NCBI GenBank assembly: GCA_964373495.1
Contig: CAYJUW010000002.1
Span: 1 to 35,714, forward strand
From: an uncultured Candidatus Saccharibacteria bacterium
GTDB taxonomy: Bacteria; Patescibacteriota; Minisyncoccia; Sungbacterales; SURF-37
Reading direction: 5' to 3'
Length of the DNA: 35,714 bases
Shown here: positions 17,309 through 35,654 of the stretch, in pieces
Numbering within the stretch: position 1 is the first letter of the stretch
How the letters are laid out: the number at the start of each line of letters is the position of its first letter
Position numbers and translations under genes: made by a program
Notes under the pieces: generated by a model
What the model saw: only the letters and a program-made list of their open reading frames with translations
Database searches by the model: none
Told to the model about the DNA's origin: nothing

Positions 17309-17851
17309 TTATCCAAGCGCCCGTACCAGTACCGACACTTCAAACTTGGGATTCGCCACCACCCAGCGGTAGATTGCCGGGCTTACCATGACCGCGAAGA
17401 TGACATTCCCGAGGAGGTGGAGAATGGTGAAAGGAATCTGCCCGACGAGCGCCTCTATAAAGGACTGCCCAAAGGCGATCGGACCCACGGTGAGGCCGGT
17501 CAGCGCATCGTAGGCAATGGTGCCGATGATGGCATAGCCGAGGAAGTTCGTTGTCGTGGCCTCGCGCCTCTGGAAAAATACTGCAGCGCCGATGCCGACG
17601 AACCCATAGGCCACCCCGGTGATCACGGTCCAAATACCGAGGAGACCGGTTACCGCATCGTAGATGACAATAGAGAGAAAGCCGAAGGCGAACGCCCCGA
17701 ACCAGCCGTAGCGCTTGGCAAATGGCATCAGTGTCGTCAATACCGGCTCGACGTTCGGCGGCCGGAACGGGATTAACCGCACCGCAAAAACAACGGCCCA
17801 CCCGATGATGAATTTCACCGTACCATCCAGCTTATGAGAGAACTGCCGCAT
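17309..17851 (-). CDS. Multi-TM membrane protein, candidate cobalamin/corrinoid uptake component (ECF S-component-like)
   Basis: Six or so hydrophobic helices, including an RLIPFRPPNVEPV segment. Lies immediately downstream of the cobalamin riboswitch terminator. Start taken at MRQFSHK. Confidence 0.7.
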   Translation of the reverse strand: MRQFSHKLDGTVKFIIGWAVVFAVRLIPFRPPNVEPVLTTLMPFAKRYGWFGAFAFGFLSIVIYDAVTGLLGIWTVITGVAYGFVGIGAAVFFQRREATTTNFLGYAIIGTIAYDALTGLTVGPIAFGQSFIEALVGQIPFTILHLLGNVIFAVMVSPAIYRWVVANPKFEVSVLVRALG

Positions 17852-17870
17852 ACATGTTGACGCCGTTACC

Positions 17871-18040
<170 letters not shown>

Positions 18041-18168
18041 ACAATATATACTTATACTCTTATCCTACCCGTGCCTCTGTACGGCGCAAGGCCGACTATA
18101 CACAGGTTACTATGAAAAAGGGCTTCAGTTGTACGACAACCGAAACCCGATGAGCGAAAGCGTGCGCC

Positions 18169-27360: not shown

Positions 27361-31143
<3,783 letters not shown>

Positions 31144-32997: not shown

Positions 32998-33696
32998 TCA
33001 GCGCTGGCCGCTGAACTGCGCGCCGGGCTTCTTGAGGTACGGCCGCTCTGCCGGCGAGGAGAGTTGGATGAAGTGGACCGGCGCGAACTGAAGGCCGGGG
33101 TAGAGGTTGAAGGCAAAGAGGCCGTCGTTCTTCACCTCCAACGTCGGATGGCCGCACCAGCCGGGATGGAACACCGGCGAGGAGACGTGCACTGAAACCC
33201 CAGAACGCGCAATCTTGCTCCGGCCACCGATCTGCATCTGGAGGTCGTAGGGAACACAGACGAACTGCTTGGTATGGGCAAGAACCAGCATCCCCGGCTG
33301 GAGTTCGAACGCCTCCTCGTCTTTGAGAACAATCCGCTTGCGCGAGTCGTCCACAATGTCAACCGGCCGCACGCGCTCAAGACGCTTCGACTCACCGCTG
33401 TAGCGGAGGTCAATGGTGAAGCGGCGGATAACCGGCCGATCGTTCACCCGGACCAGCTCGAACGGCATGTCCGACGCTTCGATGACGTTCCCAAAGGCGA
33501 GGTCCATGGTGTCGGCGTCGAACCATTCGTCGGGCGGAATTTCGTTGATGACGATGGTGCCAGGCGTCGCCGCCAGCGCCTCCTCAAGCTCCTTGGGCGG
33601 TTCACGGCGCGCGACGCGCGCAAGAAGATCGTCCGGGAGCCCGAGCTCTGCGACGGTCTTGAGGCGTTTCCTGAGATCACGATCCGAAAGAATCAT
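32998..33696 (-). CDS. dcd: dCTP deaminase / dUTPase-superfamily protein with ~30-aa N-terminal insert
   Basis: MILSDRDLRKRL opening. GGRSKIARSGVSVHVSSPVFHPGWCGHPTLEVKNDG matches the Dcd core (GRSSLAR…H…G…TLE..N). GGGAGGAG precedes the ATG at 33696. Confidence 0.75.
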   Translation of the reverse strand: MILSDRDLRKRLKTVAELGLPDDLLARVARREPPKELEEALAATPGTIVINEIPPDEWFDADTMDLAFGNVIEASDMPFELVRVNDRPVIRRFTIDLRYSGESKRLERVRPVDIVDDSRKRIVLKDEEAFELQPGMLVLAHTKQFVCVPYDLQMQIGGRSKIARSGVSVHVSSPVFHPGWCGHPTLEVKNDGLFAFNLYPGLQFAPVHFIQLSSPAERPYLKKPGAQFSGQR

Positions 33697-33726
33697 GGCG
33701 CTCCTCCCTCGTGTGTTGGGTTTTCC

Positions 33727-33750
33727 TTGAAGGTACTGTTGAAGGTACTG
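33727..33750. repeat. Tandem 12-mer TTGAAGGTACTG x2 in the divergent promoter region
   Basis: Exact duplication, 31-54 nt upstream of the dcd-like ATG. Confidence 0.8.
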
Positions 33751-33800
33751 GCGGGACCTGCGTAGAACCACCGTAGCGAACACATTACTGAACGTCAAGG

Positions 33801-33828
33801 TTGACAGAGCGGCTGATCGCGCCATATT
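33801..33828 (+). promoter_or_regulatory. Promoter TTGACA-16-CATATT for the zinc-ribbon/thyA-like operon
   Basis: -35 at 33801-33806 and -10 at 33823-33828. Lies ~50 nt upstream of the ATG at 33879. Confidence 0.6.
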
Positions 33829-33878
33829 GTGGTAGGCACACCACTCTGGACGACAAGAAGGCGAGAAGGAGGTGCGGC

Positions 33879-34160
33879 ATGTCCTTTGACAACGATGGTT
33901 ATTCCACCACCAACACACCCGTACCGGCCGGGACTGTGGCCCCGGTCGAGAAGTCCTGTCCCGGGTGCGGCGGGCAGCTCATGATAAAGCACGTGGTCCG
34001 CAAACGCCAGGACTGCGTGTGGCCGAGCGGGTTCGTAAGCGGCAGTGGAAAAGTCAACCACGTCCTCGCCGAGTTCTGCCCGAACTGCGATCCGGAACCC
34101 GCCAGTGGCATCGAGGTTGATCCCAGTGGCTGGAAGAAACGGATGATCGGCCAGGACTAG
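33879..34160 (+). CDS. Zinc-ribbon protein (93 aa), hypothetical
   Basis: CPGCGG … CPNC pairs. GAAGGAGG precedes the ATG. Ends 27 nt before the next gene. Confidence 0.6.
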   Translation: MSFDNDGYSTTNTPVPAGTVAPVEKSCPGCGGQLMIKHVVRKRQDCVWPSGFVSGSGKVNHVLAEFCPNCDPEPASGIEVDPSGWKKRMIGQD

Positions 34161-34187
34161 TGAGGAGCACGAAAGGAGGGAGGCACG

Positions 34188-35654
34188 ATGCCCAAGTTCA
34201 GAACGTGGGAGGAGGAATGCCTCCCGCGTCTCCGAGTCATCAATGCAAATCGCCCCGTTGCGCTCTGCGTCCTCTGGAACCTCATCGAGAAGTTGCCCGA
34301 ATACGCTCCCGGAATCGAAGAGGCCGCGGGACTTGGCGTGATCGGTAACCTCCGTACGCCTATCGGTATCGGCTGGTTTCTCCGAGGACTCTGGAAGTTC
34401 CCCAACATCTCGCGCGTAGTTTTATGGGGAAGCGACCTTACCCATTCAGGACGAGCGCTTGCAACGCTCTGGGACAAAGGGCCCACTGCCGGTCATACCG
34501 TACCGGAATTCGGATGGAAACTCGATACCTCCATTCCGGATGAGGCCATCAACGTCCTCCGCCATACGGTAACCCTCATCGATCTCCGCCATGAACGACG
34601 CGCTGTCGCTCTGCTCCCCCATCTGTCCGAGAACCGGTGTGGCATCTTCACGAGAAGCGTAAGAGATTTCCTCCCGGTCCCCATCCCCGAGCGGCGCGTC
34701 CTACCAAACGAACCATCCTCGATCTTCATTCGCGGGCAAAATCCCGGCGATGCATGGCTCCGCATCCTCCACTATCTCCTGCAATACGGCCGGCCGCGCG
34801 ACACGAGAAAGAAAGAGAGTATCAGTCACTGCTTCGACATGCACGTGGTTTTCCCGGTACCAGCAGAGGACGATCCTGAAGGATGGTTCGGCATCAGCCG
34901 GACCGATACCGAACGCTACCTCGCCGAAGTTCTCCGCCCATCGCCGCCGACAGCCGTGGATAGCGGCGGCCGAGAAGTAAGCACGGTCGACTACCACTAC
35001 GGCCAGCGTATCCAGGACTGGCGCGGCCATAACCAGCTCGAAGAGGTCATCGCGCGCCTGAAGGAAAATTTTGAGACGAAACGCGCGAGTATCGCTATTC
35101 TCGAAGTACCCGACCTCGAAGAGCTGGAAGATGCACCCTGTTGGTCACTCATCACCTTTGCCCTGATTAATGGCGAGCTCCACGCCTCGAATGTTTTCCG
35201 TAGCCACGATATGTTCGGTGGCTGGCCCAACAATGCCCTCGCGGTGATGTACGTGCATCGTATGGTAGCGAACGCGCTCGGCGCCGGCTTGGGGAGCGTA
35301 GAGATCATCTCCCAGAACGCTCAGATTTATACGCGGCACACCGCAGCAGCCGAGGAATGGGTCAGACAGATGGGCTTCACGCTCGAACAGGCGAGTCACC
35401 ATATCGGCTTCCGAATCGATCCGGCCGGCAGCTTCACGTTCACCATCCTTACTGACAACAGGGTGCGCGCCCAACTCGTAAGCCCGGCGGGCGATGAGGT
35501 GCTCTGGGAAGCGGAGAGTGCCAACCCGAGCGTGCTCATCCGCTGGATTGTGGAATCCATGGTGCTCGACCCACAGCACGTCCGCTACCTCGGCGCCGAG
35601 GAGGAGAAACTCAATCGCTCTTTGAAGACCGGCAAACCCTACCACCAGGGCTAG
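34188..35654 (+). CDS. Three-domain fusion: MtrA-like N-domain + thymidylate-synthase-fold core + DUF4346-like C-domain
   Basis: The core aligns with ThyA: YGQRIQDW / YGKQWRAW, KRASIA / SRRIIV, APCW / APCH (catalytic Cys), RSHD / RSCD, WPNNALAV / PFNIASYA (Asn kept), QIYTRH / HLYSNH. The N-domain IGNLRTPIGIGWFLRGL…NISRVVLWGSDLTHSGRAL resembles MtrA. The tail DPAGSFTFTI…HVRYLGAEEEKL resembles DUF4346. AGGAGGGAGG precedes the ATG. Confidence 0.75.
   Translation: MPKFRTWEEECLPRLRVINANRPVALCVLWNLIEKLPEYAPGIEEAAGLGVIGNLRTPIGIGWFLRGLWKFPNISRVVLWGSDLTHSGRALATLWDKGPTAGHTVPEFGWKLDTSIPDEAINVLRHTVTLIDLRHERRAVALLPHLSENRCGIFTRSVRDFLPVPIPERRVLPNEPSSIFIRGQNPGDAWLRILHYLLQYGRPRDTRKKESISHCFDMHVVFPVPAEDDPEGWFGISRTDTERYLAEVLRPSPPTAVDSGGREVSTVDYHYGQRIQDWRGHNQLEEVIARLKENFETKRASIAILEVPDLEELEDAPCWSLITFALINGELHASNVFRSHDMFGGWPNNALAVMYVHRMVANALGAGLGSVEIISQNAQIYTRHTAAAEEWVRQMGFTLEQASHHIGFRIDPAGSFTFTILTDNRVRAQLVSPAGDEVLWEAESANPSVLIRWIVESMVLDPQHVRYLGAEEEKLNRSLKTGKPYHQG

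What the first reader, a model, noticed from the sequence alone, without database searches (positions are those of the whole stretch)
32998..35654. Divergent non-canonical pyrimidine module: insert-bearing Dcd-like gene opposite a zinc-ribbon gene and an MtrA-like/ThyA-fold/DUF4346-like fusion
The 488-aa protein keeps the thymidylate-synthase catalytic Cys (APCW), the RSxD motif and the Asn that specifies dUMP in ThyA. It is flanked by a domain resembling the corrinoid-binding MtrA subunit of methanogen methyltransferase and by a tail resembling DUF4346, an architecture I associate with archaeal-type thymidylate synthases. It is co-oriented with a 93-aa CxxC…CxxC protein, behind a TTGACA-16-CATATT promoter. 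The divergent gene is a dCTP-deaminase-family protein with an extra ~30-aa segment after the MILSDRDLRKRL opening. Together they could form a dCTP to dU(T/M)P to dTMP route that uses a one-carbon carrier other than ordinary methylene-THF. Alternatively they could make a modified pyrimidine. The MtrA-like domain is notable because the genome also invests in a B12 riboswitch and transporter (17309-18040). The role of the fused domains and of the zinc-ribbon partner is, as far as I know, uncharacterised.
Basis: partly seen in the sequence, partly recalled or inferred. Interest (0 to 1): 0.7.

Follow-up and report, generated by a model that had tools for sequence, protein, structure and literature searches.

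The report
Three-domain thymidylate synthase with dCTP deaminase partner
A candidate-phyla bacterium makes its DNA thymine building block with an archaeal-type thymidylate synthase flanked by two extra domains of unknown role, a form common in tiny symbiotic archaea and bacteria and not found described, though the literature tool was largely unavailable.

Summary
Window 34188-35654 (+) encodes a 488-aa protein with three domains: an MtrA-like N-domain, a methanogen-type ThyA core and a C-terminal DUF4346 domain. The ThyA core keeps Cys318, R338-S339-x-D341, Asn349 and Tyr381. A divergent 232-aa dCTP-deaminase homologue with two inserts and a 93-aa zinc-ribbon gene lie upstream.

The fusion is not a one-off. 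At least 58 loci from species-representative genomes carry it, mostly DPANN archaea (including Nanopusillus acidilobi) plus Patescibacteria. In 23 of 53 loci it sits within 4 kb of, often directly beside, dCTP deaminase, dCMP deaminase or thymidylate kinase. It is most likely a working dUMP-to-dTMP synthase.

The corrinoid idea is weakened. The cobalt-ligating His of MtrA falls in a two-residue deletion in the window's clade, and no His occupies that loop in the DPANN sequences inspected. DUF4346 has no structural relative in the PDB. It also ends DHPS-like pterin proteins (TIGR00284) and MtrA-like proteins (NF002128), which points to a pterin or one-carbon role.

The zinc-ribbon gene is conserved only in the closest relative. 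Two genomes carry a second genuine ThyA beside the fusion, so its exact chemistry stays open. Verdict: an uncharacterised variant of a known enzyme, of moderate interest.

The parts
32998..33696 (-). Long-form dCTP-deaminase homologue of 232 aa. It has a 32-aa insert after the N-terminal helix and a second insert of about 20 aa. It lacks about 10 C-terminal residues relative to E. coli Dcd.
   Evidence: Pfam DCD 1.6e-21; TIGR02274 92.5 bits against a cut-off of 92.8. The best PDB match is E. coli Dcd 1XS1 at 1e-20. The equivalents of Ser111, Arg115 and Glu138 (S160, R164, E187) are kept. A GGAGG sits 6 nt before the ATG (read). The clade P0036-P0048 is separated from ordinary Dcd by an E-value jump from 1e-65 to 1e-22.
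33697..33878 (.). Divergent intergenic region. It carries a promoter-like site, TTGACA (33801-33806), 16 nt, CATATT (33823-33828), facing the + strand genes.
   Evidence: 10 of 12 matches; 2 sites found against 0.7 expected by shuffling. This is a consensus match only, not evidence of function.
33879..34160 (+). A 93-aa CxxC...CxxC zinc-ribbon-like protein, probably co-transcribed with the 488-aa gene across a 27-nt gap.
   Evidence: No family reaches its threshold. A homologue is found only in the closest locus, L007 (tblastn 9e-12; sequence). More distant members of the clade lack it.
34188..34703 (+). N-domain of the 488-aa protein (residues 1 to about 172). It is an MtrA-like Rossmann-type domain that lacks the cobalt-ligating His.
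   Evidence: A profile of this domain hits MtrA structures 5LAA and 5L8X with E = 1e-5 to 1e-4. The His of CGSEVQGHI falls in a 2-residue deletion. NF002126 gives E = 6e-4. Six of 18 clade members hit Pfam MtrA. DPANN orthologues reach up to 58.6 bits. W30, G60, G81 and D83 are at least 90% conserved in 72 sequences. pLDDT is 80-97.
34725..35372 (+). Thymidylate synthase core of the methanogen type (residues about 180-395). The catalytic Cys318 codon is at 35139-35141.
   Evidence: Pfam PF00303 64.3 bits; TIGR03283 92 bits. hhalign against E. coli ThyA gives 97.5% probability. Foldseek gives TM about 0.6-0.66 on the target for ThyA structures. C318, R338, S339, D341, N349, Y381, Y271 and Q283 are all at least 99% conserved in 72 sequences.
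35400..35654 (+). C-terminal DUF4346 domain (Pfam name PterinBD-DUF4346), residues about 405-488 plus the stop codon. It has three beta strands and two helices, with the motifs DPxGxF, HxxYLGxE and YxQ.
   Evidence: PF14251 28.7 bits and NF002128 positions 278-367. Most homologues carry a precomputed PF14251 hit. The domain-only model has pLDDT 87.8. Neither Foldseek (best E 0.026) nor a sequence profile finds a PDB relative. The same domain type matches the C-terminus of TIGR00284, a DHPS-like protein.

Best explanation
The 488-aa protein is a thymidylate synthase that converts dUMP to dTMP. It uses ordinary ThyA chemistry, in which Cys318 attacks C6 of dUMP and a one-carbon unit is added at C5 from a methylene-pterin donor.

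Its core is the short methanogen type, which lacks the C-terminal segment that closes over folate in bacterial ThyA. This core sits between the two halves of an MtrA-like plus DUF4346 module, which elsewhere exists as one contiguous unit.

I infer that this module is an accessory for handling the pterin or one-carbon carrier. It might bind, retain or deliver the carrier in organisms that cannot make it. I do not think it is a cobalamin-dependent methyl relay.

The divergent 232-aa gene is a catalytically intact dCTP deaminase of a lineage-specific long form, and it supplies dUTP or dUMP. The zinc-ribbon gene is a local, non-conserved passenger.

Shown: the domain homologies, the catalytic residues, the distribution and the gene linkage. 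Inferred: the substrate, the product, the donor, and the role of the N and C domains.
For: - ThyA homology and the full set of nucleotide-binding and catalytic residues are present. The uracil-specifying Asn349 is invariant in 72 bacterial and archaeal sequences.
- Twenty-three of 53 genome loci have dCTP deaminase or dUTPase-family genes, dCMP deaminase or thymidylate kinase within 4 kb. Many are adjacent or overlapping.
- L004 reads nrdD-nrdG-DCD-fusion-NDT-like-TK-pyrG. L020 has Tmk 4 nt upstream of the fusion.
- The long Dcd is the divergent neighbour in L001-L003, L005-L008, L010 and L011. It keeps the Ser/Arg/Glu catalytic triad.
- In the NF002128 model the MtrA-like region (positions about 106-272) and the DUF4346 region (about 285-370) are contiguous. 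DUF4346 also ends the DHPS-like pterin protein family TIGR00284.
- The MtrA cobalt ligand His is missing. It falls in a deletion against the profile of the window's clade, and no His occupies that loop in about 30 clade and DPANN sequences read by eye.
Against: - No enzymology exists for any member, as far as I could establish. The paper library returned no hits for DUF4346 or PterinBD and timed out on every other query.
- TIGR03283's equivalog cut-off is not reached (92 bits against 174.55).
- Two genomes carry another bona fide ThyA within a few kb of the fusion. L020 has a stand-alone TIGR03283 ThyA at 200 bits. L061 has a canonical ThyA at 340 bits followed by DHFR. The fusion may therefore not be simply redundant.
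- Forms with a degenerate ThyA core but intact N and C domains exist (P0181, P0235). The flanking module may therefore have a function of its own.
- The loops that MtrA uses around its cofactor (G-x-x-x-T-x-x-x-G-I and G-S-D/E) are conserved, so some ligand probably binds there.
- The equivalent of E. coli Arg21 is not conserved in the DPANN clade, and His207 is Gln in the window's clade.
Confidence: 0.6

Rival explanations
1. Corrinoid-dependent thymidylate synthase. The MtrA-like domain would bind a cobamide that carries a methyl group. The Cys318-activated dUMP enolate would take that methyl directly, with no oxidation of the pterin and so no need for DHFR. DUF4346 or a partner protein would reload the cobalt from a methyl-pterin.
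For: The N-domain is a genuine MtrA homologue, and the loop motifs around the MtrA cofactor site are conserved. DUF4346 is associated with pterin-binding proteins. An AdoCbl-riboswitch-like element in the window suggests that the organism imports corrinoids. No DHFR was seen next to fusion genes that lack a second TS. The chemistry is plausible by analogy with Cys-dependent m5U methyltransferases (my own knowledge).
Against: The His that ligates cobalt in MtrA is deleted in the window's clade and absent from that loop in the DPANN sequences inspected. DUF4346 is an 85-aa beta3-alpha2 domain, not a pterin-binding TIM barrel, and has no structural relative. No methyltransferase partner is linked. 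The riboswitch is sub-threshold and could serve other B12 enzymes. Stand-alone methanogen-type ThyA proteins work, presumably, without this domain.
Confidence: 0.1
2. The fusion is not the housekeeping TS. It would be a paralogue that makes a different C5-modified uracil nucleotide, such as 5-hydroxymethyl-dUMP. Alternatively it would work only with a special donor, while a second ThyA or ThyX makes dTMP.
For: A bona fide stand-alone ThyA lies 4 kb from the fusion in L020. A canonical ThyA-DHFR pair lies in the same co-directional cluster as the fusion in L061. His207 is Gln in the window's clade. TIGR03283's equivalog cut-off is not met.
Against: Co-occurrence was seen in only 2 of about 58 loci. 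In the other loci the fusion is the only TS-like gene in view, and it is coupled to Tmk, TK and dUMP-supplying enzymes. Complete small genomes such as Nanopusillus carry the fusion. Tyr94 and the other residues of the reductive half-reaction are kept. Having two TS genes is known in ordinary bacteria (my own knowledge).
Confidence: 0.12
3. The N and C domains have no role in chemistry. They would be a structural scaffold or a regulatory or partner-docking module, for oligomerisation or for assembly with the Dcd, Tmk or ribonucleotide reductase enzymes. They would have been inherited from an MtrA-DUF4346 protein into which a ThyA gene was inserted.
For: The whole-protein pTM is only 0.54 although the domains are confident, so no fixed contact with the active site is predicted. 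Stand-alone ThyA forms exist without these domains. The long Dcd partner carries clade-specific inserts that could be docking surfaces. Forms with a degenerate ThyA core keep the N and C domains.
Against: Polar residues in both domains are strictly conserved across bacteria and archaea at about 25% overall identity: W30, G60, G81 and D83 in the N-domain, and D411, G414, H464, E471, Y485 and Q487 in the C-domain. This looks more like a ligand site than a scaffold. Both domain families otherwise occur in pterin or one-carbon enzymes.
Confidence: 0.18

Closest known systems
Methanogen-type thymidylate synthase (NCBIfam TIGR03283; ThyA fold, Pfam PF00303)
   Same: The short ThyA core ends at the equivalent of E. 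coli residue 223. The catalytic Cys in a PC motif, the RSxD motif, Asn177, Tyr94 and Tyr209 are all present. The best NCBIfam hit covers model positions 2-197 of 201.
   Different: The score is about half the equivalog cut-off. The core is embedded between an MtrA-like domain of about 175 aa and an 85-aa DUF4346 domain. His207 is Gln and Arg126 is Lys in the window's clade.
MtrA, the corrinoid subunit of N5-methyl-H4MPT:coenzyme M methyltransferase (Pfam PF04208; PDB 5LAA, 5L8X, 8Q3V)
   Same: The N-domain is homologous by profile, with E = 1e-5 against PDB sequences. The strand and loop motifs are shared.
   Different: There is no cobalt-ligating His, which falls in a 2-residue deletion. There is no membrane anchor and no mtr operon. 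The domain is fused to a nucleotide enzyme.
MtrA-like/DUF4346 proteins (NCBIfam NF002128) and DHPS-like/DUF4346 proteins (NCBIfam TIGR00284)
   Same: The same DUF4346 domain lies at the C-terminus. In NF002128 it directly follows an MtrA-like region.
   Different: Here a ThyA core is inserted between the two. None of these families has an assigned function that I could retrieve.
Protozoan bifunctional DHFR-TS
   Same: An alpha/beta domain lies N-terminal to a TS domain in one chain. These were the top Foldseek hits over the full length.
   Different: The rmsd is about 24 Å over the full alignment. There is no DHFR family hit for the N-domain. The resemblance is one of arrangement only.
dCTP deaminase (E. 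coli Dcd, 1XS1) and bifunctional dCTP deaminase-dUTPase (M. tuberculosis, 2QXX)
   Same: The fold is shared, and the Ser/Arg/Glu catalytic residues are conserved.
   Different: There is a 32-aa insert after helix 1 and a second insert of about 20 aa. The C-terminal lid is truncated. The protein belongs to a separate small clade that co-occurs with the fusion.

Membership tests
Thymidylate synthase ThyA (PF00303) | Profile match above the curated threshold | tested here: met
   64.3 bits against a cut-off of 24.3, residues 265-394.
Thymidylate synthase ThyA (PF00303) | Catalytic Cys nucleophile (E. coli Cys146) in a Pro-Cys motif | tested here: met
   DAPC318W. P317 and C318 are 100% conserved in 72 sequences.
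Thymidylate synthase ThyA (PF00303) | dUMP-binding residues R166, S167, D169, Y209 and the R126'/R127' pair, plus the uracil-specifying Asn177 | tested here: met
   R338, S339, D341, N349 and Y381 are 100% conserved. K298 and R299 stand in for R126 and R127.
Thymidylate synthase ThyA (PF00303) | dUMP to dTMP activity with a methylene-pterin donor | not testable with these tools
   Only indirect support is available, from linkage to DCD, dCMP deaminase, Tmk, TK and NrdDG.
Methanogen-type thymidylate synthase (TIGR03283 equivalog) | Score at or above the equivalog cut-off of 174.55 bits | tested here: not met
   92 bits for the window protein and 144.6 bits for the Nanopusillus fusion. A stand-alone neighbour in L020 reaches 200 bits.
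MtrA (PF04208) | Sequence homology to the MtrA fold | tested here: met
   The window protein alone gives no Pfam hit. The clade profile hits 5LAA and 5L8X at 1e-5. Six of 18 clade members hit PF04208. DPANN orthologues reach 30-58.6 bits against a cut-off of 25.
MtrA (PF04208) | His lower axial ligand to cobalt (the CGSEVQGH motif; the assignment of this His is from my own knowledge of the MtrA structures) | tested here: not met
   The His lies in an insertion relative to the profile of the window's clade. The loop there reads GSDLT(R/H)(S/T)G. No conserved His is seen in that loop in about 30 clade and DPANN sequences read by eye.
MtrA (PF04208) | Membrane anchor and mtrA-H operon context | tested here: not met
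   The domain is followed by ThyA, not by a transmembrane helix. The neighbours are nucleotide-metabolism and ribosomal genes.
DUF4346 (PF14251, PterinBD-DUF4346) | Profile match above the threshold of 29.6 bits | tested here: inconclusive
   The window protein scores 28.7 bits, E = 2.3e-6. Most homologues carry a precomputed PF14251 hit. Relatives score 34.7 and 65.5 bits. Membership is met at the family level and is marginal for this sequence.
dCTP deaminase (TIGR02274 / PF22769) | Profile match, and the catalytic residues Ser111, Arg115 and Glu138 | tested here: met
   PF22769 77.5 bits against a cut-off of 27. TIGR02274 92.5 bits against 92.8, just under. S160, R164 and E187 align to the E. 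coli residues.
dCTP deaminase (TIGR02274 / PF22769) | C-terminal segment that closes over the nucleotide | tested here: not met
   The protein ends at the equivalent of E. coli residue 183 of 193.
Bifunctional DHFR-TS | A DHFR domain N-terminal to the TS domain | tested here: not met
   No DHFR family hit for the N-domain. The Foldseek full-length alignments have an rmsd of about 24 Å.

The most novel reading that the evidence does not exclude
The MtrA-like plus DUF4346 module would make this a mechanistically new thymidylate synthase. One version holds a cobamide without a His ligand and methylates dUMP directly. The other keeps and recycles a bound pterin without free folate or DHFR. Either would explain how cofactor-auxotrophic DPANN and CPR symbionts make dTMP.
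Probability: 0.15. Interest if true: 0.9.

Novelty: new variant of a known kind. Interest (0 to 1): 0.55.

Why it matters
Thymidylate synthesis is essential, and only two enzyme solutions are known, ThyA and ThyX. Here a third architecture appears to be the usual form in two large radiations of ultra-small, cofactor-dependent symbionts, the DPANN archaea and part of the Patescibacteria.

Suppose the extra domains bind or recycle the one-carbon carrier. That would show how these organisms run one-carbon chemistry without making folate or methanopterin. It would also give a first functional handle on DUF4346 and on MtrA homologues outside methanogenesis.

If the domains are only scaffolding, the finding is a tidy annotation correction. 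Public records call these proteins 'thymidylate synthase' or 'hypothetical protein'.

Tried and rejected
- **Literature.** Searches for DUF4346 and PterinBD returned 0 papers. Every other query or look-up timed out. Prior characterisation could therefore not be excluded from the literature.
- **Viral-contig scan with the DUF4346 alignment.** No stretch was conserved enough to search with.
- **DHFR-like reading of the N-domain.** DHFR-TS gave the top Foldseek hits, but I rejected this reading. The rmsd is about 24 Å, there is no DHFR profile hit, and MtrA homology is established.
- **Asp to His in the Dcd IDPGW motif as a sign of altered chemistry.** Rejected, because ordinary dCTP deaminases also have His or Glu there (P0053 and P0113).
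- **The conserved YxQ(G/D) C-terminus as a carboxylate lid like that of ThyA.** Rejected, because DPANN orthologues extend 2-16 residues beyond it.
- **Split genes.** Stand-alone archaeal ThyA loci have no separate N- or C-domain genes nearby.
- **Structural relatives of DUF4346.** None was found.


Full report
**What is there**

The region holds three genes, each with a GGAGG ribosome-binding site (read).
- 32998-33696 (-) encodes a 232-aa dCTP-deaminase homologue.
- 33879-34160 (+) encodes a 93-aa protein with two CxxC pairs.
- 34188-35654 (+), 27 nt further on, encodes a 488-aa protein.

A TTGACA-16-CATATT site lies in the divergent intergenic region at 33801-33828. It matches 10 of 12 positions, and 2 sites were found against 0.7 expected. 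Upstream lie secE, nusG and rplK. The window ends 60 nt after the 488-aa gene.

**The 488-aa protein has three domains**

*The core.* Pfam places Thymidylat_synt on residues 265-394 at 64.3 bits. NCBIfam's best model is the methanogen-type TS, TIGR03283, over residues 180-384. It scores 92 bits, below the equivalog cut-off of 174.55.

A profile comparison with E. coli ThyA (sequence from memory) gives 97.5% probability. It aligns these residues:

| E. coli ThyA | Window protein |
|---|---|
| Tyr94 | Y271 |
| Arg126 / Arg127 | K298 / R299 |
| Cys146 | C318 |
| Arg166-Ser167-x-Asp169 | R338-S339-H-D341 |
| Asn177 | N349 |
| His207 | Q379 |
| Tyr209 | Y381 |

The core ends at the equivalent of E. 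coli residue 223. The C-terminal segment that covers folate in bacterial ThyA is therefore absent, as in methanogen-type enzymes.

*The N-domain.* On its own, the window sequence gives only a weak MtrA signal (NF002126, E = 6e-4). A profile of the domain built from 18 homologues hits the solved MtrA structures 5LAA and 5L8X at E = 1e-5 to 1e-4. Archaeal orthologues hit Pfam MtrA above threshold, at up to 58.6 bits. The homology is therefore real.

In that alignment the MtrA loop CGSEVQGHI aligns to GSDLT--(R/H)(S/T)G, and the His falls in a two-residue deletion. From my own knowledge of the MtrA structures, this His is the lower ligand of cobalt. No His is conserved in this loop in the clade and DPANN sequences I read by eye.

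*The C-domain.* It matches PF14251 (now named PterinBD-DUF4346) at 28.7 bits, just under the cut-off of 29.6. It also matches positions 278-367 of NF002128.

*Models.* AlphaFold2 on a 24-sequence alignment gives a mean pLDDT of 84 with confident domains. The pTM is only 0.54, so the mutual arrangement of the domains is not defined. Foldseek on the whole model returns only TS structures and DHFR-TS.

A model of the C-domain alone has pLDDT 88 and shows three strands followed by two helices. It has no significant PDB neighbour: the best Foldseek E-value is 0.026, and a sequence profile finds nothing.

**Distribution**

A word-indexed search found 35 full-length clusters at 37-75% identity. The few that carry a source name are Patescibacteria, for example Sungbacteria.

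A pattern scan of one genome per GTDB species found 103 relatives. Domain HMMs show the complete N-T-C architecture in about 58 of the fetched loci. Most are DPANN archaea: Woese-, Aenigm-, Iain-, Micr- and Nanoarchaeota. They include Nanopusillus acidilobi, Nanobsidianus stetteri and strain YN1. Several Patescibacteria lineages are also represented.

A further 25 loci hold stand-alone ThyA genes of about 220 aa. None of these has a separate N- or C-domain gene nearby.

An exhaustive phmmer search with the N-domain alone found 111 representative clusters at 50% identity, mostly 460-530 aa long.

Across 72 bacterial and archaeal fusions, at about 25% overall identity, the residues conserved in at least 90% of sequences are:
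- N-domain: W30, G60, G81, D83.
- Core: the ThyA catalytic set listed above.
- C-domain: D411, G414, H464, G469, E471, Y485, Q487.

**Context**

In the window's clade the long Dcd gene is the divergent neighbour in L001-L003, L005-L008, L010 and L011.

Across 53 genome loci, clustering of neighbours within 4 kb gave these counts:

| Neighbour family | Loci |
|---|---|
| DCD / dUTPase family | 15 |
| dCMP deaminase | 13 |
| Thymidylate kinase | 4 |
| At least one of these | 23 |

Many of these genes are adjacent to the fusion or overlap it. L004 reads nrdD-nrdG-DCD-fusion-NDT-like-TK-pyrG. This is the signature of a thymidylate pathway enzyme.

**The Dcd-like protein**

It belongs to a small clade of 229-235-aa proteins (P0036-P0048) that co-occurs with the fusion. 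E-values jump from 1e-65 within the clade to 1e-22 for ordinary dCTP deaminases. Its best solved relative is E. coli Dcd (1e-20).

The equivalents of Ser111, Arg115 and Glu138 are kept. The clade has a 32-aa insert after the first helix and a second insert of about 20 aa. It stops about 10 residues short of the E. coli C-terminus. His in place of Asp in the IDPGW motif is not diagnostic, because ordinary deaminases vary there too.

In the Sungbacteria locus a second, short DCD-family gene without the catalytic Glu follows the fusion. It may be the dUTPase. The window ends before that position.

**The zinc-ribbon gene**

A homologue exists only in the closest locus, L007, where the fusion is 73% identical. 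L002 and L003 have an unrelated Cys-rich ORF in the same slot. L005, L010 and L011 have no gene there. It is not part of a conserved module.

**What the flanking domains might do**

NCBIfam matches of relatives show three things.
- In the NF002128 model the MtrA-like region (positions about 106-272) and the DUF4346 region (about 285-370) are contiguous. The ThyA core therefore looks inserted into a pre-existing two-domain module.
- DUF4346 also matches the C-terminus (positions 412-497) of TIGR00284, a dihydropteroate-synthase-like pterin-binding protein family. This probably explains Pfam's name for the domain.
- All three settings of DUF4346 concern pterin-linked one-carbon chemistry.

Together with the missing cobalt ligand, this favours a role in handling the carrier over a cobalamin relay. 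This is inference only.

Two observations keep other readings alive.
- P0181 and P0235 keep the N and C domains around a degenerate ThyA core that lacks the Cys and RSxD motifs. This comes from my by-eye alignment of the sequences and the weak hits.
- Two genomes carry another genuine ThyA beside the fusion. L020 has a stand-alone TIGR03283 enzyme at 200 bits. L061 has a canonical ThyA at 340 bits followed by DHFR, in one cluster with dCMP deaminase, DCD, Adk and Tmk.

**The B12 remark**

Rfam at gathering thresholds finds only four tRNAs. With a relaxed threshold, an AdoCbl aptamer match covers the full model at 17930-18057 (-). It scores 38.4 bits against a gathering score of 50, with E = 4e-5. 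It lies upstream of a 188-aa ORF that has no Pfam hit. This is a plausible riboswitch, but it says nothing specific about the fusion.

**Comparison with what is known, and novelty**

The protein works most like a methanogen-type ThyA. It passes the Pfam ThyA tests and fails the TIGR03283 equivalog cut-off. Its N-domain is homologous to MtrA but fails the defining cofactor-ligand test. Its C-domain is a DUF4346 member at the family level.

Public records name these proteins 'thymidylate synthase' or 'hypothetical protein'. I found no literature on DUF4346. The paper library was otherwise unavailable, so this negative is weak.

I rate it a new variant of a known kind. It is widespread, conserved, uncharacterised, and sits in a pathway where new architectures are rare. 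Interest: 0.55.

Noticed in passing
window 17930-18057 (-), with the ORF at 17309-17875 (-): An AdoCbl riboswitch-like element matches the full model at 38.4 bits, below the gathering score of 50, with E = 4e-5. It lies upstream of a 188-aa ORF with no Pfam hit, which may be a corrinoid transporter.
   Followed up: partly
window 27364-31143 (+): The GyrB gene encodes 1259 aa. It is interrupted by an intein with a LAGLIDADG homing-endonuclease domain (Intein_splicing, LAGLIDADG_3 and Hom_end hits).
   Followed up: no
L020 1353-7407 (Woesearchaeota PCXZ01000018): A stand-alone methanogen-type ThyA (200 bits, above the cut-off), a CooC-like ATPase and an acetyl-CoA synthase beta subunit (CdhC/ACS, 735 aa) lie just upstream of a Tmk-fusion operon. 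This is an unexpected neighbour set for a DPANN archaeon.
   Followed up: partly
L061 1-6238 (Patescibacteria JBDRJA010000124): A single co-directional cluster reads fusion (cut by the contig end), dCMP deaminase, DCD, unknown 215 aa, canonical ThyA, DHFR, NDT-like, Adk, Tmk. Two thymidylate-synthase types sit side by side.
   Followed up: partly
P0181 (411 aa) and P0235 (435 aa): These relatives keep the MtrA-like and DUF4346 domains (PF14251 at 65.5 bits in P0181). Their middle ThyA-like region is degenerate and lacks the Pro-Cys and RSxD motifs. They may be pseudo-enzymes, or forms in which the flanking module acts alone.
   Followed up: partly
NCBIfam TIGR00284 positions 412-497 (matches): The DUF4346 domain of these relatives matches the C-terminus of the archaeal dihydropteroate-synthase-like protein family. 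This links DUF4346 to pterin-binding enzymes.
   Followed up: partly
L062, L063 and L072 (Woesearchaeota isolate ERP119705_co5_617, three contigs): One genome bin carries three separate stand-alone ThyA-like genes of about 220 aa.
   Followed up: no
L002 5086-5625 (+) and L001 9548-10087 (+): A second, short DCD-family gene of 179 aa follows the fusion in Sungbacteria. It lacks the deaminase Glu (LHPAIFN in place of LExxN), so it may be a dUTPase. The window ends before the equivalent position.
   Followed up: partly
P0217 (324 aa): An MtrA-like N-terminal segment is joined to a MoxR-type AAA_3 ATPase. It may be a chimeric gene call or a real fusion.
   Followed up: no
L001 5138-5524 and L002 687-1019: A 23S_rRNA_IVP family gene lies between nusG and rplK in the Sungbacteria loci. 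It is absent from the same position in the window.
   Followed up: no
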